Below, in pieces: positions 21,580 to 31,711 of a stretch of DNA of 62,238 nucleotides. Within the stretch, counting starts at the first letter, position 1. The number at the start of each line of letters is the position of its first letter. A program made the translations under genes and the position numbers. Source of the DNA: Thermoplasmatota archaeon. GTDB taxonomy: Archaea > Thermoplasmatota > Poseidoniia > Poseidoniales > Thalassarchaeaceae. Location of the stretch: positions 1-62,238 of the forward strand of contig JAYZFV010000032.1 of the NCBI GenBank assembly GCA_036336595.1, in the 5' to 3' direction. The notes below the pieces were generated by a model. It worked only from the letters and a program-made list of their open reading frames with translations, was not told the origin of the DNA and did not search any database.

Positions 21580-22371
21580 ATGGCGGAGGTTCTGTTCCTC
21601 GGAACCGGCAACGCATTCTCCCCCCCGGGGAGGATGCACGCCTTGGCCCTGATCGACGGCATCGTTCTGATCGACGCGCCGCCCACCGTCCTTCCGCAAC
21701 TCCGGCGTGCGGGCATTTCGCCCTCGGATATTCAGCACCTGCTAATCACCCACTGGCACGCCGACCACACCTTCGGATTTCCGTTCCTGATGCTCGACAG
21801 GGAGTGGCTGGCCCCGGATAGGAATGCCCGGAGTACGCTGAGCATCCACGCTAGGCCAGGGGGGAGGGAGCGTCTGAGCGAGCTCTGCGAAGTCGGTTTC
21901 CCCGGTAGCCTTGACGCCGCGCTCGGGGAACGAGCAGTCTGGTACGAAGATGAGATCGGGCCCCTAGAAGGGACACAATGGAGCTACGACAGGTTCCCCG
22001 TCAGTCACACTCCCGAGACCGATCCTCACGGGTACAAGCTGATGCACGAGAGTGGAATTTCTATCCTCCACTGCGGAGACTCGGGGCCATGCCAAGAAAT
22101 TGAGGAACGGGCCCCGGTTTCAGATGTCGTGATCCTGGAAATGGGGGTTCCCGACTATGTCGACAGCCCTCATCATCACAACCCGTCCCAAGTAATTTCG
22201 TTCTCTGAGCGGCACCCCCATGCCATGGTTCTGGTCACACACAACTTCGCCCGATCGCCAGATAGCGACCATGGATTCGAAGTACCCGAGTTGCCGAGTG
22301 GAATCCAACAACTCAACGACGGCGATCGTCTTGAAATCGGTGATGACGGTGAGTTATCATTGATAAATTAA
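21580..22371 (+). CDS. Metallo-beta-lactamase-fold hydrolase
   Basis: MAEVLFLGTGNAF... and the HxHxDH motif THWHADH. The ORF upstream of the ATG at 21580 is antisense to the CysJ-like gene. Confidence 0.8.
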   Translation: MAEVLFLGTGNAFSPPGRMHALALIDGIVLIDAPPTVLPQLRRAGISPSDIQHLLITHWHADHTFGFPFLMLDREWLAPDRNARSTLSIHARPGGRERLSELCEVGFPGSLDAALGERAVWYEDEIGPLEGTQWSYDRFPVSHTPETDPHGYKLMHESGISILHCGDSGPCQEIEERAPVSDVVILEMGVPDYVDSPHHHNPSQVISFSERHPHAMVLVTHNFARSPDSDHGFEVPELPSGIQQLNDGDRLEIGDDGELSLIN

Positions 22372-22800
22372 TATTGAATTATTTATCCCATATTTATACT
22401 GTAAATCCAATTCCTTACTTCCAAGAGCAATTATGGATTCCCTGGAAGTGAATTCTGCACAGTCCTGAAGCTGCGAACTTCCCCCAACTTCTAAGTGGTT
22501 GATCACAAAGGTTTACGAAGTTTCCAAAGGAGAAAAATAAATCGATAAAATATGGAGGAAACGATTGACTGCAAACTGTAAATTAGTAATGTATCCATTA
22601 TCCATTGATTGTAAAAATCGACATTACAAGACGTGGGTAATGCGTCGAAAATCTCAATCTTGCAAGACACTCTTATTACCTCCGACTGCCTCGGTTCAGG
22701 GTACGCACTTGCTAGCAATGAACCCAATGGGGTGGAGGATTAGCCATGAGTGGGTTTTTTGCGTTGGTGTTATTTAGTGGAAGGAAATATTTTCGAGAAG
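22372..22800. other. Candidate replication origin (AT-rich, ORB-like boxes) upstream of orc1/cdc6
   Basis: This is one of the strongly AT-rich non-coding stretches of the window and directly abuts orc1/cdc6. ORB-like boxes: TTCCCTGGAA (22438-22447), TTTCCAAAGGAG (22521-22532) and AGTGGAAGGAAAT (22786-22798), in opposed orientation around an A/T tract. Direct repeats ACTGTAAAT (22398, 22575) and TATGGA (22432, 22551). Confidence 0.5.
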
Positions 22801-24015
22801 ATTCTCGGACAGGATAGTCTCTTCACAGATAGGAAGGCTTTCGACCACGCGTTCGAACCCTCGCGCCTGCCTCATAGGGAGCACGAGGTCGATGCGCTCG
22901 TGCGAAACCTAGTCGATGCCCTCAATGGGCACATCCCCTCGAACATGCTCCTCTACGGTGTTCCTGGATCAGGCAAGACCGCAGTTACTAGGTTCGTGCT
23001 AGGGCAACTCCGAGAGAAGGGGAACGAGATGGGGCAGTTCGTGAATACCTACGAAATCAACTGCAGGAACGTGGACACGAAGTACAGGGTTGTTCAGACC
23101 ATTGCGAGTCAGTTGGCACAACGGGGCGACCCCCCCGTGCCGTTTACCGGATGGCCGACGGATAGGGTGATCGAGACCCTAATAATGAGGATGAGCAGGG
23201 CTGGGGGGGTTCACATCATTGTACTCGACGAGGTCGACAACCTAGTCGACCGAGCAGGAGATGACCTGCTATATGCGCTGACTAGCCTGAACACGGTGCT
23301 CGATAATGGCCGATGCTCGATTATAGGGATCAGCAACGATCTGCATTTTACACAGCATCTGGATCCAAGGGTGAGCTCGAGACTCAGCCAGGAGGATGTG
23401 GTGTTCCATCCCTACGTCGCGACGGAGATTCAGAACATTCTCGGCGAGCGCGCTGCGATGGGCATCAGGGAGGGCGTGCTCGAACAGGGCGTGATCAGGC
23501 TGTGCGCAGCGCTCGCTGCTCAGGAGCATGGGGATGCGCGGAGAGCGCTGGACCTGCTCAGAATCTCCGTTCAGAAGGCTGAGCAAAGGGCCCAGTCCAA
23601 GGTCGATACCAAGCATGTGAGGATGGCTCAGAGCCAGTTGGAGTACGATCAGGTTACGCCGGTGCTCAAAACGCTGCCCCTGCACCAGAAGCTAGTTCTG
23701 TTCTCGATCTGCTTGAATGAGGAGAACGGCCTGAGAAACATTTCGACCGGCGAGGTCTACCGTACCTATGCAGACGCCTGTACCAAAATCGGCATCGAAC
23801 CCCTGACCACCAGGCGAGTTTCGTCGCTGTTGAACGAGCTCGATACCATCGGACTGATCATGGCGAGAAACGTCAGCAAGGGCAGAGGCGGTCGGAGCAA
23901 GCAAGTTAACTCGGCCATTCCAAAGGCCATAGACGCGATTTCCCTGATGAGCGAGAGTGAGCCACTGATCAACGAGGCCTCATTTGGGAAGTACCACCTC
24001 CAAGGTCATCTTTGA
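22750..24015 (+). CDS. cdc6: Orc1/Cdc6 replication initiator
   Basis: LPHREHEVDAL, Walker A GVPGSGKTA, Walker B IIVLDEVD, sensor GISND, and a C-terminal winged helix (TGEVYRTYADAC...GLIMARNVSKGRGGRSK). No ATG at the N-terminus; GTG 22750, TTG 22759 or GTG 22777 are candidate starts. Confidence 0.92.
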   Translation: MGFLRWCYLVEGNIFEKILGQDSLFTDRKAFDHAFEPSRLPHREHEVDALVRNLVDALNGHIPSNMLLYGVPGSGKTAVTRFVLGQLREKGNEMGQFVNTYEINCRNVDTKYRVVQTIASQLAQRGDPPVPFTGWPTDRVIETLIMRMSRAGGVHIIVLDEVDNLVDRAGDDLLYALTSLNTVLDNGRCSIIGISNDLHFTQHLDPRVSSRLSQEDVVFHPYVATEIQNILGERAAMGIREGVLEQGVIRLCAALAAQEHGDARRALDLLRISVQKAEQRAQSKVDTKHVRMAQSQLEYDQVTPVLKTLPLHQKLVLFSICLNEENGLRNISTGEVYRTYADACTKIGIEPLTTRRVSSLLNELDTIGLIMARNVSKGRGGRSKQVNSAIPKAIDAISLMSESEPLINEASFGKYHLQGHL

Positions 24016-24590: not shown

Positions 24591-25610
24591 TCAATCACCG
24601 CTATCAAACCCACTCAGCAGCTTCCTGCAACGCTGTTTGGATTCCTCACTGCACCATCTGAGGACGACGCCTCTGCCCGGCTGCCCGTAGAGCACCACCG
24701 AGCCCAACGGGGCCAGGGGGTGCAAGATTAGTGGGGCAAGGTCCTCCTCCCCTACTACTTCTATGAGGTGGGTCGTACCATCTTCCATCCAAGAGGAGAC
24801 TGCGTGCTCACAGGCTTCCAATAGGGAGGGGGTGAGGGACCCGGCGGGACTCTCGCACTGCAACACCCCGTCGTATGCGGAGGGGTCAATCCCTTCGGCT
24901 CCTTCCCAAGGCTCCCTCCTGGTGAGTCCGTCAACTAGGGCGATGTCGGCGGGTCGGCCGAGGTCCTGCAGCGCGAGGACGGTCACGTCCCCGGCGGCGA
25001 TGACCGGTCCCCATTCAGACTCTATTTGAGAAAGCACCTCTGACATGGCTATGGAAGGATCGGCCTCTGGTCCCGGTACCAACTGGCCGAACGGATCCTT
25101 GAGCTCTGCCTCGACCTCGGGAGTCAGGTTGATTCTGCCCTCTCTCAACGGGTTCGGGATCCAAGGCATACCCGCGCGGTCAATCTCCCCATTCCTGATT
25201 CGAGAGCTTGAGAGCGGCCCCCCATCCCAAGCCCTGAGGTGCTGCACCTCGATGACCTCGAGCGGCTGAAGTTGGTTCTGCAATCTCATTGAATTGATCG
25301 CGTCGCATCTAGGCCGCGTCTCCGGGGTGCAGATAATGGCCCCGGCCTCCAGATGAGTGGGGGCTGGACCATATGGGTCCTCGAGGACTCCAAAGCTAAT
25401 GCGCTCAGGTGACTCCGGGGCCATTCTGTCGCGTATGCCCTGACAACGCTCCTCCCAACTCAGTACCCGGGGATCCTTGGAGCGGGCGGATGAATCTGAG
25501 GTAAGCCACACCTCCAAAGAGGCGCAGGAATCGAGAGATCTCCCTATGAGTCGAGCATGGCCATCATGGAATCGATCGAAGGTGCCGCCGATGAGGCCGA
25601 CTTCATGCAT
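24591..25610 (-). CDS. Fusion of archaeal phosphopantetheine adenylyltransferase and a DUF359 (GTP-dependent dephospho-CoA kinase) domain
   Basis: N-terminal half: GLIGGTFDRFHDGHARLI and SSSRIRNGE (cytidylyltransferase HxGH / S-x-x-R-I-R motifs). C-terminal half: AAGDVTVLAL..GRPADIALVDGLTRRE, VVGEEDLAPL and VVLYGQPGRGVV, the DUF359 signature. ATG 25610 preferred over GTG 25685. Confidence 0.78.
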   Translation of the reverse strand: MHEVGLIGGTFDRFHDGHARLIGRSLDSCASLEVWLTSDSSARSKDPRVLSWEERCQGIRDRMAPESPERISFGVLEDPYGPAPTHLEAGAIICTPETRPRCDAINSMRLQNQLQPLEVIEVQHLRAWDGGPLSSSRIRNGEIDRAGMPWIPNPLREGRINLTPEVEAELKDPFGQLVPGPEADPSIAMSEVLSQIESEWGPVIAAGDVTVLALQDLGRPADIALVDGLTRREPWEGAEGIDPSAYDGVLQCESPAGSLTPSLLEACEHAVSSWMEDGTTHLIEVVGEEDLAPLILHPLAPLGSVVLYGQPGRGVVLRWCSEESKQRCRKLLSGFDSGD

Positions 25611-25998
25611 CAGGGTTCCGCCAGTAGGCCATGCTTTGAGTGCTGTGGGGAAATGTGTGCCCCGGGGCGTAACGGCCACCTTCACGGCGTAGCTCGGGCG
25701 CCTGACCCACCCCGGGACGTCTGTCGGATTGCGGGGTAGTCCCTTGATTCATTCTATACAGTCCTCAGGGGACCTAACGCGATCCGGCCACCTGAATTGC
25801 GCCAACGATCACACCGCACAGACGGTCACGCTGGTCTTCGACAGGTGGTCACCCATTCCGTGGTGCCGTGTTTCATCCTCCACCTCCGGCGAGGGGGTTT
25901 CGTCCGCACGGTGTTGCCGGTTGGGCATCATGCGGCACCCTGAGACGCACAAGAACCCAACGGTGGTTGAAAAGTGCGGTTTCCGACGGACTTTCGAA

Positions 25999-28608
25999 TC
26001 AAGAAAGGCCCGGATGGAACCCCGAGAGACCTAGAATTAGGCGCTCAGCCACCGACTGATCACCACTCATAATCATCTCAATGGTAAATTTCGGCCATCT
26101 ATCGGCAGGTTGGGCAAGCCAACCCACTAGATCATGCGTTCTACCGAAGACCGGTGGAGTCTTGTCACGCGCGGACTCGAGGGCGTTCAGCAAGTCACTC
26201 AACGGGTCGAGATTCTCCGTAGAGATATCGTCGCTGGAAATGTTTCGCATCCTATTCTGTAGCGGTTGTATCAACTCGGGGTCGCAACCTGGGTGCGCGA
26301 TCGAAGAGAGGCCGGGGGCAACACATTCCTCACCAATGGGACGCAGGATGGTGGCGCACCATGGAGACCGGTGGGACAGTAGATCATCCATGCTATCCTC
26401 CTGAAGAAGTCGCATTAGCATCTCAGAGGAGATCGGAGCCCACCACCCCGACGGCAAATCTCTTCGAAATTGCTGAATCGCCTCTAAATCAGCCTTTTGT
26501 TCCCCCAAAGCGTGGTTCAGGAGTTTGGACCATATATTGAGGCAATGGCCCCCTGGTAACTGCGATCCCCGCTCCCTGATTCTGTGAATCATCTCTTCGT
26601 GCTCCTCGGGTGAGCTCTGGGTGTTGCCGTACAACCATGATACCCCTCGCAACGCAGAAAGAGATTCTCTCGGGGGTTCTGACAACCATGCCTCCACTGC
26701 CCAGCCGAGAAGATCGCCATGGGAGTCATCTGGCAGCCAGGCCGAATTCTGGATAAATTGGGAGGCTAACCAAGCCGCGCCTCTGTTTGCTTGGGTTGGA
26801 TCTATGGCTGGCCATGATCGAAGTAGATTGTCAGGATCCTCCCTGAGCTTCGCGGTAATCATCTCTGCGTATAGTTCCAATACCGAATCGGGAGCTTGGT
26901 CGGCGACGCTGGAAATCTTGTCTAGGGGGAGATGATCGACATCCAAGAGGGCGAGCCACTCTGGATCCAGCCTGGTTGACAGACGTTGCCACCTTGGCCA
27001 CCTTGCCCACTGAGGCGAGGCGATCCAAGCTGCAAGTGGGTATCTCGCCTCCATCTGGTTGGCCCACTCCTCATCACCCTCGGGAAATTGTGACGCTGCT
27101 GAGCCGACGATCGATGCCATGTCTCCGTCAAGCTTCAAAGGGGTGAATTCGAGACTAGGAGCACGTCCGAGAATATCCCAAGGGGAAATTGTGTACTGTT
27201 CGTCGTCATGGGATGATGCGATGGCCGTGGTCTCCTCCATTAGCCGGATCGGAATTGTCTTGCCGCCTTTTGTGGAGAAATTCAGCCATGGAAGAGTCCG
27301 CAAACGATCCAAACCCAATCTGTCGAGACCCGTGAAGGGAGGCATCATCTCATCCAATAGCACCAATCTCAAGTTCGGGTGCGATGCAACGACCGATAGC
27401 ACATCGTTGGGCAAGTGAACCCCTATCTCCAGAACAAGCGGGGTCCCGTCAACTTCCTGCAAGGACCAGAGAATGAGTGACTCGATAGCAGACTTCCCCA
27501 GCCCTCTGAGGTCGACTAGTCTGATGGATGATTCCTCGATCGAGAAGCTCGCGCTGCCCCAGTCCCTCCTGAAACGTCGCCATGTCGAGTCGTCGGTCTT
27601 GACCCTCCTGGAAGTCGAGATTCTGTCACGGAGAGCCTGTAGCCTCCTTCGTCGCTCGTGGTCAGTCAGCCTTGGATGCGCCCTCTGTATCCAATAATCC
27701 AGTGCTGACATTGGGTAATCCCTGCCCTCCAGATGTAAACCGCCCAAATCAGCGACCACTACCGCATTCGACTTTGCTGACCTGAGCAAGACCGATCTAG
27801 GGAGCCTCTCCTTTATCGGTGCGGCGATAGGCTGGTTCGGGCGGACATCAGGGGCCATCTCATGGCACGAGCCCAAGAGCCATGGGCCGCGGTGGTAAGC
27901 GAGTTCGGCGAGTGGTGGGTCTGGCTTAGAGCGCGGCGGTGAGAACCACGCCCCCGGAGAGACGGTGATTGACGGATCCTCGTCGAGCATCCTCGCCCTC
28001 ATCACACCAACAACCGAAGCCTGGCCCACGTACGCCTCGATCCTCTCGGGGTCTGCGAGGTCTGGGGGGGCTTCCACCACTTCCATGTTGCCGAGATCGA
28101 ACCAGCGCGGAGAACGCTCTGTCAGCACGGCCCAATTCCAAGACACCCCCTGGTTTCTCGTGGAAGCAGGATGGTCGCCTGAGGGCGGTGGTAGGCGATT
28201 TGGTATTAGCACCAGGGGATCACTAGGCGGACTGAGAAAACAAAGGAGGAGGTTTGCCTCATCCCGGGAGAGGATGCAGCAGCCATTCCGATTTGAGGGC
28301 AGTTCGGTGACGGTCAACGCTTTCGACCACTCGTCATCCTGCATCGTCATCCATCCCTTCTCAGTCAAGCGAATTTGTGATCCACGGCTCCCTGGTGGCA
28401 AGTCGCTGGAGACTAATCCCTCTTCCCTCATCCTGCGAATTTCGGCCGATGCATGAGGCACCCTCAATCCCGAATCCACCGCTAGTTCACTCACAGTTGC
28501 TTCACCCTCTGCGAGCCTAGAAATGAGCCTCGAACGATGCTTGCTCCTTATTCTGCGAGGTGAGATGGAATGGGCCCCCCCCACATCACTCTCGGAACCA
28601 ATTGACAC
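25999..28608 (-). CDS. Large orphan protein with an N-terminal winged-helix DNA-binding domain
   Basis: Uninterrupted 869-codon ORF (GTG start). Residues about 25-85 read like an ArsR/TrmB-type wHTH: LISRLAEGEATVSELAVDSGLRVPHASAEIRRMREEGLVSSD...IRLTEKG. The rest is Trp/Leu-rich, probably helical repeats, with no recognisable catalytic motif or P-loop. Confidence 0.6.
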   Translation of the reverse strand: MSIGSESDVGGAHSISPRRIRSKHRSRLISRLAEGEATVSELAVDSGLRVPHASAEIRRMREEGLVSSDLPPGSRGSQIRLTEKGWMTMQDDEWSKALTVTELPSNRNGCCILSRDEANLLLCFLSPPSDPLVLIPNRLPPPSGDHPASTRNQGVSWNWAVLTERSPRWFDLGNMEVVEAPPDLADPERIEAYVGQASVVGVMRARMLDEDPSITVSPGAWFSPPRSKPDPPLAELAYHRGPWLLGSCHEMAPDVRPNQPIAAPIKERLPRSVLLRSAKSNAVVVADLGGLHLEGRDYPMSALDYWIQRAHPRLTDHERRRRLQALRDRISTSRRVKTDDSTWRRFRRDWGSASFSIEESSIRLVDLRGLGKSAIESLILWSLQEVDGTPLVLEIGVHLPNDVLSVVASHPNLRLVLLDEMMPPFTGLDRLGLDRLRTLPWLNFSTKGGKTIPIRLMEETTAIASSHDDEQYTISPWDILGRAPSLEFTPLKLDGDMASIVGSAASQFPEGDEEWANQMEARYPLAAWIASPQWARWPRWQRLSTRLDPEWLALLDVDHLPLDKISSVADQAPDSVLELYAEMITAKLREDPDNLLRSWPAIDPTQANRGAAWLASQFIQNSAWLPDDSHGDLLGWAVEAWLSEPPRESLSALRGVSWLYGNTQSSPEEHEEMIHRIRERGSQLPGGHCLNIWSKLLNHALGEQKADLEAIQQFRRDLPSGWWAPISSEMLMRLLQEDSMDDLLSHRSPWCATILRPIGEECVAPGLSSIAHPGCDPELIQPLQNRMRNISSDDISTENLDPLSDLLNALESARDKTPPVFGRTHDLVGWLAQPADRWPKFTIEMIMSGDQSVAERLILGLSGFHPGLS

Positions 28609-28865
28609 GAACTATCACCTACAAATAAAGTCACATTGCAACCTAGTATTAAATTATACTATTTCATTACATTTAATTACACATTTCCACTGGAAAAGTT
28701 ACTGCTTCCAATTGTGCACCGTATATTAGGTGTGATTATTCACAGTATTGTGTCACTATCTGTAACCAACGAGGCGAATTATATACAGAAGCGTTATATC
28801 ACCATCCGCCCTCCTGTGAAAGACGGCTCGAGGACAGGGGCGCGGATAACCCAGGGTGATGGAAA
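28609..28865. other. AT-rich divergent intergenic island with an exact mini-ORB core
   Basis: Sharp drop in GC. TTTCCACTGGAAAA at 28684-28697 (reverse complement contains TTCCAGTGGAAA). CCAATTG-containing repeats at 28598-28608 and 28708-28719. ATTACA tandem repeats at 28667-28682. TATA-like TTATATAC at 28779-28786, upstream of the 83-aa gene. Confidence 0.5.
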
Positions 28866-29117
28866 ATGAGAACAACTAGACTAAGGCAGAAGATCAAGAA
28901 ATTCCTAGATGAGAGGGGGGAGGCGAACACGACCGAGATCCTCGAGCACGTGAACTCTACGATGAGGCACGGGACGACACCTCAACAGCTTGGTAACGTC
29001 CTATCGAAGGACAAGGACATCCTGAAGGTCGCCACGACCAAGCGCGGTGGCGCGCTATCGGGAAGGTACGAGATATGCGTGTGGCAGGTCCGCCCGGGCG
29101 CTCTAGACAAGAGCTGA
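28866..29117 (+). CDS. Small (83 aa) winged-helix-like protein
   Basis: Pattern helix-turn-helix plus wing: KIKKFLDERGEANTTEILEHVNS...TPQQLGNVLSKDKDILKV...GRYEICVWQV. No family assignment possible by eye. Confidence 0.45.
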   Translation: MRTTRLRQKIKKFLDERGEANTTEILEHVNSTMRHGTTPQQLGNVLSKDKDILKVATTKRGGALSGRYEICVWQVRPGALDKS

Positions 29118-30231: not shown

Positions 30232-31185
30232 CTATGCGTCAGTCTCGGAGGAGACAAGCCTGTGAACCCCGGAAGAGACCTCTATGACCTCTGATTGCAC
30301 GGAGGCCCTCCCGTTGCCGAAGAACTCGACGCCTCTGGTTCGGCCACTGCACACGCCGGTGCCGATGAAGACCGAGTCCTCCGATGCACAAAGTTCGTCG
30401 CGATCCCAGATTCGCTCAATGTCGCCTTCTATCATGAGTTCGGCGCGCTCCCGGTGCCCCTCGTTCTTGAACACGAGGCGCCCCTCGAACGGGGCATCGA
30501 GTCCACGCAGGGCAGTGGCGGTGATGACTCCCTCTGGTGCTGCCCCTATGCCCATCAGCATGTCGATCTGAGAATTTGGGTCTGCAGCATCGAGGGCGGC
30601 GGAGATGTCCCCGTCACCTATGAGCACGATATCGACGTCGAGCGCACGCAGGTCACGGAGGAGGTCCTCGTGCCGGGGGCGTTCCATTACCACGATTCGG
30701 AGGTCGTTCGGGCGCTTGTCGAGAGCCGCGCAAGCCGCCTCGACGTTGTAGGCCACGTCGGCCTCGAGGCTGACTTCGCCGGCCACGGCCGCGGGCCCGG
30801 CAATCTTGTCCATGTAGCAGTCTGGAGCGTGAAGAAGCGAGCCCCTCGGGCCCGCAGAGAGTACTGCCATAGCATTCGGGAGGTCCAGAGCTACGTGGTT
30901 TGTGCACTCCAAGGGGTCAACTGCGATGTCGATTGATGGTGCAGAAGGATCGCCCTGCATCGATCCGAGCGGCTCCCCTATCCAAAGCATGGGCGCATCG
31001 TCGCGCTCTCCCTCACCGATGGCGACCCTGCCGTCGAACGGAACGGTGTCGAAGACTGCTCGCATGGCCTCTACTGCAGCCCCATCGGCTCCCTTGCGAT
31101 CACCGTGACCCTTCCATTTGGCGGCAGCCACAGCAGCAGCCTCGGTCGCACGCAGAAAGTGCGGGACAAGGTCGGTAGTCGCCAT
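30232..31185 (-). CDS. glpX: Fructose-1,6-bisphosphatase class II (GlpX type)
   Basis: ATEAAAVAAAKWKGHGDRKGADGAAVEAMR, IGEGERDDAPMLWIGEPLG, DIAVDPLECTN, GIGAAPEGVITA. ATG 31185 chosen; the upstream 123 codons of the ORF are Arg/Ala-rich read-through. Confidence 0.88.
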   Translation of the reverse strand: MATTDLVPHFLRATEAAAVAAAKWKGHGDRKGADGAAVEAMRAVFDTVPFDGRVAIGEGERDDAPMLWIGEPLGSMQGDPSAPSIDIAVDPLECTNHVALDLPNAMAVLSAGPRGSLLHAPDCYMDKIAGPAAVAGEVSLEADVAYNVEAACAALDKRPNDLRIVVMERPRHEDLLRDLRALDVDIVLIGDGDISAALDAADPNSQIDMLMGIGAAPEGVITATALRGLDAPFEGRLVFKNEGHRERAELMIEGDIERIWDRDELCASEDSVFIGTGVCSGRTRGVEFFGNGRASVQSEVIEVSSGVHRLVSSETDA

Positions 31186-31210
31186 GTGGCGGGGAGGGGG
31201 GGCGAGACGT

Positions 31211-31711
31211 TCAATCCTGCGGGTCGCCCTTTGACTTCCTAACCACGCGGACGCCCTGCACCCTGGCGTTCGGGTACTGGCCTTCGGCGTCCTTCTCAAT
31301 CGGCTTGAGCATGTCCCAAGCACACAGAAGCCCGGCGCTGACGCCACACAGCGCCTCCATCTCCACACCCGTCGTCCAGTGAGTCCGAACCGAAACGGTG
31401 CAGCGCAATCCTGCTTCCTCGACCTCCCAATCGACCGTGCAGCCCTCGATTGGCACGGGGTGGCAGTGCGGCAGGGTCCTAGGCGTCTCCTTGACAGCCT
31501 GGATTGCAGCAACGGTGGATGCCTCGCGCACGTCGCCCTTGGGTGAGCGGCCATGCGCGACCACGTCTAGTCCCTCGGGGGACAGCGTCAGAACACCAGT
31601 GGCAACGGCCTCACGGGCGACGACCGGTTTCGAGCCGACATCTACGATACCTGTCCACGAGCCCTCCATAACCACACCAGACACCCCTCGGATGGCATTC
31701 TCCCTCTTCAT
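31211..31711 (-). CDS. moaC: Cyclic pyranopterin monophosphate synthase MoaC
   Basis: IVDVGSKPVVAREAVATG, KGDVREASTVAAIQAVKETPRTLPHCHP, TGVEMEALCGVSAGLLCAWDMLK. ATG 31711 (or 31669); the remaining upstream ORF is read-through. Confidence 0.85.
   Translation of the reverse strand: MKRENAIRGVSGVVMEGSWTGIVDVGSKPVVAREAVATGVLTLSPEGLDVVAHGRSPKGDVREASTVAAIQAVKETPRTLPHCHPVPIEGCTVDWEVEEAGLRCTVSVRTHWTTGVEMEALCGVSAGLLCAWDMLKPIEKDAEGQYPNARVQGVRVVRKSKGDPQD

What the first reader, a model, noticed from the sequence alone, without database searches (positions are those of the whole stretch)
25999..29117. AT-rich island with an exact mini-ORB core, flanked by divergent winged-helix genes including an 869-aa orphan
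The 257-bp spacer 28609..28865 is far more AT-rich than its surroundings. It contains TTTCCACTGGAAAA (28684-28697), whose reverse complement carries TTCCAGTGGAAA, the core of the widely conserved archaeal origin recognition box. It also has CCAATTG-containing repeats about 110 bp apart and ATTACA tandem repeats. On one side is an 869-aa ORF whose only recognisable part is an N-terminal ArsR/TrmB-like wHTH. On the other side is an 83-aa wHTH-like ORF. In Sulfolobus a secondary origin sits next to a winged-helix initiator (WhiP). The island could therefore be a second Orc1 target or origin, a partition- or defence-type regulatory locus, or the control region of an uncharacterised DNA-binding system.
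Basis: partly seen in the sequence, partly recalled or inferred. Interest (0 to 1): 0.66.

Follow-up and report, generated by a model that had tools for sequence, protein, structure and literature searches.

The report
Conserved Orc1 recognition boxes, Marine Group II
The AT-rich gap holds a real, deeply conserved copy of the archaeal origin-recognition motif, and a complete copy lies 530 bp away inside the neighbouring 869-aa gene, so this is very probably where the replication initiator Orc1 binds in these uncultured marine archaea.

Summary
The window comes from a Marine Group IIb archaeon (Thalassarchaeaceae). The spacer 28609-28865 is the most AT-rich spot in the 62 kb. TTTCCAGTGGAAATG (28682-28696, minus strand) matches the 14-nt core of the published ORBs of the sister order Methanomassiliicoccales. 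This motif sits at one fixed place in 79 of 86 orthologous sequences.

The main new result is a full ORB with its G-string, CTTCCACGAGAAACCAGGGGGT (28145-28166, minus). It lies inside the 869-aa gene, 530 bp from the mini-ORB. It is the only match to the ORB pattern in 77 of 85 related loci. Its synonymous sites are frozen: Gly154 uses GGG in 100% of sequences and Ser149 uses TCC in 97%. The peptide it encodes falls in a low-confidence linker of the predicted structure.

The gene order DUF3860 / spacer / 869-aa gene / CoA gene / orc1 holds across Poseidoniales. The 869-aa protein is not an orphan. The 83-aa protein belongs to DUF3860 and matches PDB entry 2OD5.

Best reading: an ORB cluster bound by Orc1, 4 kb from orc1. 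Origin firing is unproven. There is no inverted pair of full ORBs and no change of sign in GC skew. The kind is known; the case is new.

The parts
28145..28166 (-). Full-length ORB (dyad core plus G-string), CTTCCACGAGAAACCAGGGGGT, embedded in codons ~148-155 (A-S-T-R-N-Q-G-V) of the 869-aa gene
   Evidence: It is the only match to TCCANNRGAANNNNNGGGGT in the window and in 77 of 85 loci, always at this site. The family consensus is CTTCCACAGGAAACGAAGGGGTG; the archaeal ORB consensus is CTTCCAGTGGAAACGAAAGGGGT (PMC4153887). Synonymous sites are frozen. The encoded peptide lies in or next to the low-confidence linker aa 144-152.
28681..28699 (-). Mini-ORB. The palindrome is ACATTTCCA-C-TGGAAAAGT. 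Read on the minus strand, TTTCCAGTGGAAATG occupies 28682-28696. There is no G-string.
   Evidence: It sits at a fixed position ~75-88 nt upstream of the 869-aa start and 530, 518 or 509 bp from the embedded ORB. TCCA and GAAA are invariant, while the centre and the right half degenerate in the more distant clade.
28800..28822 (-). Degenerate ORB-like element, CTTTCACAGGAGGGCGGATGGTG. It lies directly next to the DUF3860 TATA box and covers the inferred transcription start.
   Evidence: It matches the family ORB consensus at 15 of 23 positions, with CACAGGA and GGTG at the same spacing. In L055-type loci it carries GGGGGGT. It lies 123-124 bp from the mini-ORB wherever it was detected. This is the weakest of the three elements.
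28661..28683 (-). Direct repeats TGTGTAAT-TAAA-TGTAAT (consensus TGTAAY-N4-TGTAAY) between the mini-ORB and the TATA-like box. They are a candidate operator or promoter element, separable from the ORBs.
   Evidence: They are retained in L082, which has lost both ORBs.
28646..28659 (-). TATA-like box GTATAATTTAATAC of the 869-aa gene promoter (inferred)
   Evidence: The conserved form is TAATTTAWTAC, ~45 nt upstream of the start. A Shine-Dalgarno sequence, AGGTGAT, lies 6 nt before the GTG.
28700..28790 (.). AT-rich stretch between the ORB-like elements. It combines variable sequence with the conserved TTGGTTACA box and is the only candidate unwinding region if the locus fires.
   Evidence: That it unwinds is inference only.
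28791..28803 (+). DUF3860 promoter, GCGTTATATCACC, with the TATA box TTATAT at 28794-28799 (inferred)
   Evidence: The conserved form on the other strand is GGTRATATAAYG. A Shine-Dalgarno sequence, GGTGATGG, lies at 28853-28860.
25999..28608 (-). 869-aa protein specific to Poseidoniales. It has an N-terminal ArsR/MarR-type winged helix (aa 23-97), followed by a beta-rich region, an alpha/beta region and an all-helical region with no known relatives.
28866..29117 (+). 83-aa DUF3860 winged-helix protein under extreme purifying selection
22777..24015 (+). orc1/cdc6 initiator gene. The conserved start is GTG 22777; the mechanical ORF call starts at 22750.
   Evidence: E 1e-93 to the A. pernix homologue (PDB 2v1u) and 1e-92 to S. 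solfataricus Orc1-1 (PDB 2qby_A).
22372..22776 (.). orc1-upstream AT-rich island, the second lowest-GC spot in the window. It has no canonical ORB, but carries a conserved quasi-palindrome that resembles the 3' half of an ORB.

Best explanation
The island and the 5' part of the 869-aa gene together form a conserved recognition locus for the replication initiator Orc1/Cdc6.

Shown:
- A full-length origin recognition box lies at 28145-28166.
- A mini-ORB lies at 28682-28696.
- A degenerate ORB-like element lies at 28800-28822.
- All three read in the same direction. Their spacings are fixed at about 124 bp and 530 bp. They lie 4.1-4.8 kb downstream of orc1.
- They are conserved across Poseidoniales, at the DNA level rather than the protein level.

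Inferred:
- The single canonical Orc1 encoded at 22777-24015 binds the full ORB tightly, with its winged-helix domain on the TCCA..GGAA dyad and its AAA+ domain towards the G-string.
- Orc1 then occupies the weaker mini-ORB and the degenerate box cooperatively.
- Two consequences follow. The degenerate box abuts the DUF3860 TATA box and covers the inferred start site, and the mini-ORB lies ~30 nt upstream of the TATA-like box of the 869-aa gene. Orc1 occupancy would therefore gate both divergent promoters. The AT-rich stretch between the boxes is the only candidate unwinding element.

I put about 0.7 on 'these are Orc1-bound ORBs'. Given that, I put about 0.5 on this locus being, or being part of, the chromosomal origin, possibly together with the orc1-upstream AT island. 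That gives about 0.35-0.4 overall for initiation here. The remainder goes to a regulatory or architectural Orc1 site, like the ORB cluster inside the dp1 gene of Pyrococcus.

The TGTAAY direct repeats are a separate element, probably a promoter element or the operator of one of the two flanking winged-helix proteins.
For: - The exact core is unique in the window; 0.02 copies are expected by chance.
- The core equals the published Methanomassiliicoccales ORB core GTTCCAGTGGAAATG. Both CCAGTGG and CCACTGG occur among those ORBs, as they do here.
- The mini-ORB sits at a fixed position in 79 of 86 sequences.
- The embedded full ORB is the only match to TCCANNRGAANNNNNGGGGT in 1.57 Mb of related loci. 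There is one match per locus, always at +442. L052 reads ATTCCAGTGGAAATGAAGGGGT, 21 of 22 identical to M. intestinalis ORB3.
- Codon entropy is 0 at Gly154, against at least 1.62 bits at the other 20 conserved Gly columns. It is 0.21 bits at Ser149, against a median of 1.73.
- The encoded peptide lies in a stretch with pLDDT below 50.
- The ORB persists in homologues that are barely alignable: L081, L083, L084 and L085.
- In L082 both ORBs were lost together, while the winged helix of the 869-aa protein, DUF3860 and the TGTAAC repeats were kept.
- The window's Orc1 is close to the two Orc1 proteins in the PDB, 2v1u and 2qby_A (E 1e-93 and 1e-92). The recognition helix (TxRRVS) and wing (GRxGK/R) are conserved. 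That these two were solved bound to ORB DNA is my own knowledge.
- MG-II Orc1 is orthologous to the ORB-associated Orc1/Cdc6.1 of Methanomassiliicoccales.
- There is precedent for orc1 lying between two ORB clusters, one of them inside a coding gene (PMC1904270).
- The two lowest-GC islands of the window bracket the orc1 block.
Against: - No binding data exist; these organisms are uncultured.
- The window holds only one full ORB and one good mini-ORB. Recurrent mini-ORB-scoring positions within 1.5 kb number 2-4. That is below the criterion of more than 4 mini-ORBs used for Thermococcales.
- The three elements are direct repeats, not an inverted pair flanking the AT-rich stretch. An inverted half-ORB occurs in only 7 loci.
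- In Pyrococcus a single mini-ORB is not bound in vivo.
- GC skew at 4-fold degenerate sites, corrected for gene orientation, has the same sign on both sides of 28.7 kb and of 22.55 kb. The left value is 0.017 to 0.100 and the right value 0.015 to 0.103, by bootstrap.
- Isolated ORBs of unknown function are known in relatives.
- One lineage (L082) does without ORBs at this locus.
Confidence: 0.7

Rival explanations
1. Orc1 binds here, but the locus is not an initiation site. It would be a regulatory or architectural ORB cluster downstream of orc1, like the dp1 cluster of Thermococcales. It would couple expression of DUF3860 and the 869-aa protein to initiator occupancy. Replication would start in the orc1-upstream AT island or outside the window. 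This is a sub-case of the best explanation, so its probability is not additional to it.
For: - There is no change of sign in strand skew.
- There is no inverted ORB pair and there are few boxes.
- The degenerate box overlaps a core promoter, and the mini-ORB lies just upstream of the other one.
- Isolated ORBs exist in Methanomassiliicoccales.
- The dp1 ORB cluster is bound by Cdc6, with unknown function.
- The orc1-upstream island carries an element resembling the 3' half of an ORB. In about 14 of 35 loci of the more distant clade, this element ranks 2nd to 4th among matches to the spacer half-ORB profile.
Against: - The orc1-upstream spacer has no canonical ORB in any of the 80 loci.
- That spacer shrinks to 120-155 nt in L082 and L084.
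- Skew is known to fail as an origin predictor in some archaea.
- The strictly fixed spacings of 124 bp and 530 bp are more than simple promoter control would require.
Confidence: 0.35
2. The palindrome is the operator of a local winged-helix regulator, and its resemblance to an ORB is a coincidence. The regulator would be the 869-aa protein controlling its own gene, or DUF3860.
For: - The site lies in a divergent promoter region between two winged-helix genes.
- Short 13-bp palindromes are bound by dimeric archaeal regulators (my own knowledge, e.g. the Lrp/FFRP family).
- ArsR/MarR regulators commonly control their own genes.
Against: - The resemblance covers 14 of 14 core positions. It is repeated as a 22-nt full ORB with G-string inside the gene.
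- Conservation is asymmetric. TCCA and GAAA are kept, while the right half-site decays to TAGAA or AAGAA in the more distant clade. That fits a polar ORB, not a symmetric dimer site.
- The palindrome lies ~30 nt upstream of the TATA-like box and does not overlap it.
- L082 keeps an intact winged helix with the same recognition helix, yet has lost the palindrome.
Confidence: 0.15
3. The frozen codons inside the gene reflect some other constraint at the nucleic-acid level, such as an mRNA structure, an internal promoter or start, or a recoding signal. The spacer motif would then be a chance match in AT-rich DNA.
For: - Within the window alone, profile scores for both sites fall inside the range given by shuffled sequence. 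The top score is 15.3, against a null maximum averaging 13.0 and reaching 19.8.
- Rfam contains nothing that covers this region.
Against: - Cross-genome conservation is decisive, not the single-sequence score.
- The conserved letters are exactly those of the ORB consensus, and the variable ones sit at its variable positions.
- No alternative signal was found.
Confidence: 0.04

Closest known systems
ORB cluster inside the dp1 (PolD small subunit) gene next to orc1 in Pyrococcus and Thermococcus (Matsunaga et al. 2007, PMC1904270)
   Same: An ORB plus mini-ORBs lie inside or next to a protein-coding gene a few kb from orc1. orc1 is bracketed by two special regions. The arrangement is conserved across an order. 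Cdc6 binds it in vivo and in vitro, but no initiation role has been shown.
   Different: The host gene here is a lineage-specific winged-helix protein, not dp1. There is one full ORB plus one mini-ORB at fixed spacing rather than many repeats. The orc1-proximal island lacks canonical ORBs, whereas Pyrococcus oriC has them.
ORBs flanking orc1/cdc6.1 in Methanomassiliicoccales (Borrel et al. 2014, PMC4153887, Table 2)
   Same: The sequence is nearly identical: GTTCCAGTGGAAATGA-AGGGGT there, ATTCCAGTGGAAATGAAGGGGT in L052, and TTTCCAGTGGAAATG in the window spacer. The initiator is orthologous. The central base is G or C in both sets. Isolated single ORBs also exist there.
   Different: Those ORBs are intergenic and mostly occur as inverted pairs 39-256 bp apart, directly beside orc1. 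Here the full ORB is within a coding sequence, the elements are direct repeats, and the distance to orc1 is 4 kb.
   Same: An AT-rich region lies next to a gene for a winged-helix protein, in an archaeon.
   Different: The structure search found no Cdt1/WhiP-like fold in the 869-aa protein. Only a generic ArsR/MarR winged helix matched. The boxes here are Orc1-type ORBs, not WhiP sites (my own knowledge of oriC3).

Membership tests
Archaeal origin recognition box (ORB), the Orc1/Cdc6 binding site | Sequence: dyad core TTCCA-N-TGGAAA followed at fixed spacing by a G-string (GGGGT) | tested here: met
   The site at 28145-28166 has the core, the correct spacing and the G-string. The family consensus CTTCCACAGGAAACGAAGGGGTG compares with the published CTTCCAGTGGAAACGAAAGGGGT. 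The spacer site meets the core requirement only, so it is a mini-ORB.
Archaeal origin recognition box (ORB), the Orc1/Cdc6 binding site | Located near an orc1/cdc6 gene | tested here: met
   The sites lie 4.1 kb and 4.7 kb from the orc1 stop codon at 24015. The linkage holds in every locus long enough to show it.
Archaeal origin recognition box (ORB), the Orc1/Cdc6 binding site | Conserved as DNA, not as a by-product of coding | tested here: met
   Codon entropy is 0 at Gly154 and 0.21 bits at Ser149, against 1.6-1.9 bits at comparable columns. The peptide lies in a low-confidence linker. The pattern is present in 77 of 85 loci.
Archaeal origin recognition box (ORB), the Orc1/Cdc6 binding site | Specific binding by Orc1/Cdc6 (footprint, EMSA or ChIP) | not testable with these tools
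   Indirect evidence only: the window's Orc1 matches the two PDB Orc1 proteins 2v1u and 2qby_A at E ~1e-93, with a conserved recognition helix and wing.
Archaeal chromosomal replication origin (oriC) | At least two ORBs in inverted orientation flanking an AT-rich unwinding element | tested here: not met
   The three elements read in the same direction. Only the palindromic mini-ORB is ambiguous. An inverted half-ORB appears at +33 in 7 loci only.
Archaeal chromosomal replication origin (oriC) | Cluster of more than 4 mini-ORBs in an intergenic region (criterion of Cossu et al. 2015) | tested here: not met
   There are 2 strong and 1-2 weak recurrent positions within 1.5 kb. The criterion is quoted.
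Archaeal chromosomal replication origin (oriC) | AT-rich region of low duplex stability | tested here: met
   The island has the lowest GC of the window, 30.7% over 150 bp.
Archaeal chromosomal replication origin (oriC) | Change of sign in strand compositional skew | tested here: not met
   Orientation-corrected skew at 4-fold sites is +0.054 on the left and +0.052 on the right. Both bootstrap intervals exclude 0. The test has low power and is known to fail in some archaea.
Archaeal chromosomal replication origin (oriC) | Initiation activity (marker frequency, 2D gels or nascent strands) | not testable with these tools
   A 62-kb window is too short for a read-depth gradient, and the organisms are uncultured.
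Self-regulated ArsR/MarR-type winged-helix regulator with a palindromic operator | Symmetric conservation of both half-sites, with the operator overlapping the core promoter | tested here: not met
   Conservation is asymmetric in the more distant clade. The palindrome lies ~30 nt upstream of the TATA-like box. It was lost in L082 although the winged helix is intact.
WhiP/Cdt1-like winged-helix initiator (for the 869-aa protein) | Cdt1-type tandem winged-helix fold | tested here: not met
   Foldseek against the PDB matched only single ArsR/MarR/AspA-type winged helices at aa ~20-100, with best E 6e-3. Nothing matched the other ~770 aa. A profile search against PDB sequences gave the same result.
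Pfam DUF3860 (PF12976), for the 83-aa protein | Profile match above the curated cut-off, and the fold of 2OD5 | tested here: met
   136 bits against a cut-off of 27. Match to 2od5: E 9e-30 by sequence, and E 1.5e-8 with TM-score 0.86 by fold. The next-best fold hits are weak matches to winged-helix proteins.

The most novel reading that the evidence does not exclude
The chromosome origin of Poseidoniales would be built around a full ORB written into the coding sequence of a lineage-specific 869-aa winged-helix protein, with a mini-ORB and a degenerate ORB in the adjacent AT-rich divergent promoter at fixed spacings of 124 bp and 530 bp. The two flanking winged-helix proteins would themselves be origin or chromatin factors. 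These are DUF3860, which is 95% identical across a family in which third codon positions are saturated, and the 869-aa protein. The lineage has neither histones nor HTa.
Probability: 0.2. Interest if true: 0.8.

Novelty: new member of a known kind. Interest (0 to 1): 0.58.

Why it matters
Marine Group II archaea are among the most abundant archaea of the surface ocean, and they are uncultured. The searched paper library holds no description of their origin recognition boxes or origin.

A conserved Orc1 recognition site that can be located exactly gives a concrete anchor for two kinds of work:
- It offers a testable origin position for peak-to-trough read-depth estimates of growth in situ from metagenomes.
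- It supports biochemical work with recombinant Orc1.

The locus is also a clean natural example of a protein-coding sequence forced to carry a 22-nt DNA-binding site. Synonymous sites are frozen, and the peptide sits in what is predicted to be a disordered linker.

The locus also points to two uncharacterised winged-helix proteins, DUF3860 and the 869-aa family, as candidates for replication-linked or chromatin functions in a lineage reported to lack histones and HTa.

Tried and rejected
- **Rfam:** a scan of the whole window and a permissive scan of the spacer found only a tRNA-Gly elsewhere and a chance snoRNA-like hit. No known RNA explains the conservation.
- **Fold and profile searches of the 869-aa protein:** only the N-terminal winged helix matched. 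I ran no further search on a truncated model, because Foldseek aligns locally and showed no hit better than E 0.006 anywhere.
- **Metatranscriptome contigs:** both genes are transcribed at low depth, but the contigs give no transcript ends.
- **CCAATTG repeats:** one copy is coding and neither is conserved, so I rejected them.
- **Is the spacer mini-ORB also upstream of orc1?** No. A profile of the orc1-spacer quasi-palindrome does not find the DUF3860 spacer in the window's own clade. In the more distant clade, a half-ORB (GGTGTGGAAATGAAACTG) in the spacer does resemble the orc1-spacer element. This is suggestive only.
- **Recurrent profile hits elsewhere:** hits at about -3000 (GVEMEA of MoaC), +2930 and +7020 (DPH of the metallo-beta-lactamase) are coding coincidences.
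- **GC skew:** raw skew, 4-fold-site skew and a scan of possible switch positions showed no switch.
- **Read-depth origin mapping:** I judged this infeasible over 62 kb and did not attempt it.


Full report
**What is there.** The window has 59.8% GC and comes from a Marine Group II archaeon. The 869-aa protein retrieves 80 loci from MAGs and single-cell genomes labelled Thalassarchaeaceae, Poseidoniales or MGII. The spacer 28609-28865 is 257 bp. The island around it (28528-28826) reaches 30.7% GC, the lowest in the window. The only comparable island is 22253-22730, directly upstream of an orc1/cdc6 gene. TTTCCACTGGAAAA lies at 28684-28697. TTCCAGTGGAAA on the other strand is the only exact copy in 62 kb, where 0.02 are expected. 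The tandem ATTTCATTAC/ATTTAATTAC repeats are real. The CCAATTG repeats are not meaningful.

**The two flanking genes.** In the 869-aa protein, Pfam recognises only an HTH_5/ArsR winged helix, at aa 23-68. An AlphaFold model (pLDDT 82.8) shows four parts: the winged helix, a beta-rich region, an alpha/beta region and a helical region. Foldseek and a profile search match only the winged helix in the PDB. The protein is not an orphan. More than 289 clusters at 90% identity hold full-length relatives, and 193 clusters at 50% identity exist among 1.84 billion representatives. All relatives seen come from this lineage. The 83-aa protein belongs to DUF3860 and matches PDB 2OD5, annotated as a putative nucleic acid binding protein. 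The remaining fold hits are weak matches to winged-helix proteins. Its amino-acid identity across 77 loci averages 95%, while third codon positions are only 41% identical. The 134-aa database versions of this protein are start-codon over-extensions through the promoter.

**Synteny.** The order FBA, DUF3860, spacer, 869-aa gene, PPAT/DUF359, membrane protein, orc1, spacer, metallo-beta-lactamase holds in every locus long enough to show it. In much more distant homologues (L081-L085) the genes to the left of DUF3860 change. The block from DUF3860 through the 869-aa gene and the CoA gene to orc1 persists. One clade carries a second DUF3860 paralogue between DUF3860 and the spacer. The ~250-nt spacer itself is homologous throughout.

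**Conservation of the motif.** The mini-ORB sits at one fixed place, ~75-88 nt upstream of the 869-aa start, in 79 of 86 sequences. In the window's clade it reads TTTCCA[C/G]TGGAAA. In the more distant clade it reads TTYTCCAnnrGAAAT. TCCA and GAAA are kept while the centre and the right half-site drift. That asymmetry is what Matsunaga et al. describe for Pyrococcus ORBs, where TTCC and GAA are invariant. The motif does not recur in the orc1-upstream spacer.

**Comparison with published ORBs.** Table 2 of PMC4153887 lists ORBs of Methanomassiliicoccales, relatives of MG-II within the Thermoplasmata branch. Examples are GTTCCAGTGGAAATGA-AGGGGT and GTTCCACTGGAAATGG-TGGGGT. The table also gives the archaeal consensus CTTCCAGTGGAAACGAAAGGGGT. 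The same paper places the ORB-associated Orc1/Cdc6.1 of that order with the MG-II Orc1. The window's spacer motif matches the 14-nt core exactly but has no G-string.

**The embedded full ORB.** A profile built from those published ORBs gave a second, equally good hit at 28145-28166 (minus strand): CTTCCACGAGAAACCAGGGGGT, inside the 869-aa gene. Across all loci this site reads TCC-Ann-rGA-Arn-nAn-GGG-GTn.
- The family consensus is CTTCCACAGGAAACGAAGGGGTG.
- L052 reads ATTCCAGTGGAAATGAAGGGGT, 21 of 22 identical to M. intestinalis ORB3.
- The degenerate pattern TCCANNRGAANNNNNGGGGT occurs once per locus in 77 of 85 loci, always here, and nowhere else in 1.57 Mb. It occurs once in the window.
- Codon usage shows that the constraint is on the DNA. 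Gly154 uses GGG in 100% of 73 sequences (entropy 0), whereas the other 20 conserved glycines use all four codons (at least 1.62 bits). Ser149 uses TCC in 97% of sequences (0.21 bits, against a median of 1.73).
- The encoded peptide lies in or next to the low-confidence linker aa 144-152.
- The site survives in homologues that are barely alignable (L081, L083, L084, L085). It is the single strong ORB hit in each of their loci.

**Architecture.** A third, degenerate ORB-like element (28800-28822) abuts the DUF3860 TATA box and covers the inferred start site. The spacings are fixed. From the degenerate box to the mini-ORB is 123-124 bp. From the mini-ORB to the full ORB is 530 bp in 45 loci, 518 bp in 26, 509 bp in 4, and 499-546 bp in the rest. 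All three elements read in the direction of the 869-aa gene.

Between the mini-ORB and the TATA-like box lie the TGTAAY-N4-TGTAAY repeats. L082 has lost both ORBs, and no ORB is found anywhere in its 18.5 kb. It keeps the winged helix of the 869-aa protein, two DUF3860 genes and these repeats. The repeats are therefore separable from the ORBs and are the better candidate for a local operator.

In the more distant clade, a half-ORB (GGTGTGGAAATGAAACTG) precedes the mini-ORB. It is identical over 14 nt to an ORB-bearing primer sequence from T. barophilus. It resembles the conserved element of the orc1-upstream spacer.

**Is it an origin?**
- For: it is the only canonical ORB site within 10 kb of orc1 in more than 80 genomes. 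It adjoins the most AT-rich DNA of the window. The orc1-upstream spacer shrinks to 120-155 nt in some lineages.
- Against: there is no inverted ORB pair, and only 2-4 recurrent mini-ORB positions. Orientation-corrected skew at 4-fold sites has the same sign on both sides (+0.054 and +0.052), and both bootstrap intervals exclude zero. Skew is known to fail in Thermococcales, and its sign here is inconsistent between clades. I therefore treat it as no support rather than as refutation.

**Verdict.** The locus is best explained as a conserved Orc1/Cdc6 recognition cluster (confidence about 0.7). Its role could be initiation, regulation of the two divergent promoters, or both (about 0.35-0.4 for initiation). 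The kind is known: ORBs near orc1, including a precedent inside a coding gene in Pyrococcus. The case is new for Poseidoniales, for which the searched library holds no description of an ORB or origin.

Noticed in passing
window 28866-29117; L081 7172-7702; L082 7209-7711: DUF3860 is more conserved than Orc1: 95% mean amino-acid identity, against 41% identity at third codon positions. It occurs as tandem paralogues in some clades and is fused to a SAP DNA-binding domain in L081. MG-II is reported to lack both histones and HTa (PMC4153887). DUF3860 is therefore a candidate chromatin or origin-associated protein.
   Followed up: partly
window 22372-22776: The orc1-upstream AT island has no canonical ORB. 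It does carry a conserved quasi-palindrome (GrTGTAGAAAATACAyC, degenerate in the window at 22526-22548), a conserved GACACTCTTATTACC box (22666-22680) about 100 nt before the start, and a TATA-like TATTTATA next to the stop codon of the upstream gene. The conserved orc1 start is GTG 22777, not 22750.
   Followed up: partly
L082 (whole locus, 18.5 kb): One distant lineage has lost both the spacer mini-ORB and the embedded ORB, and no ORB scores above background anywhere near its orc1. It keeps the genes and the TGTAAC repeats.
   Followed up: partly
window 28804-28847: An inverted repeat lies in the inferred 5' UTR of DUF3860 (arms of 14 nt, 86% complementary, 16 nt apart). It overlaps the degenerate ORB-like box. 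Covariation was not established.
   Followed up: no
window 28648-28697 (run X4, record 21): A 158-nt contig from an oligo-dT RNA library covers the mini-ORB and TGTAAT-repeat block of a related organism at depth 45.7. Neighbouring contigs have depth 2-4. This could be a short transcript, internal priming on A-rich sequence, or DNA carry-over.
   Followed up: no
proteins P0121-P0190 (database entries of 122-134 aa): Many public gene calls for DUF3860 start too far upstream. They translate the conserved promoter (e.g. ...IQKHYITIRYPVKSG...) as protein. In the window that reading frame is closed by a stop codon.
   Followed up: yes
window 24591-25685 (minus): A single ORF fuses phosphopantetheine adenylyltransferase with a DUF359-type GTP-dependent dephospho-CoA kinase, the last two steps of CoA synthesis. 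It is conserved next to the 869-aa gene in all lineages.
   Followed up: no
window 30232-31554 (minus): The mechanical ORF for the GlpX-type FBPase is 440 aa, with an Arg-rich N-terminal extension. Relatives are ~315 aa (L081, L084), so the real start is probably downstream.
   Followed up: no
L058, L061, L063, L065, L067, L075, L078 at about +33 to +50 of the 869-aa gene: In one subclade an inverted copy of the half-ORB GGTGTGGAAATGAAACTG lies in codons ~11-17 of the gene, 144 nt from the direct copy. The two bracket the mini-ORB and the promoter.
   Followed up: no
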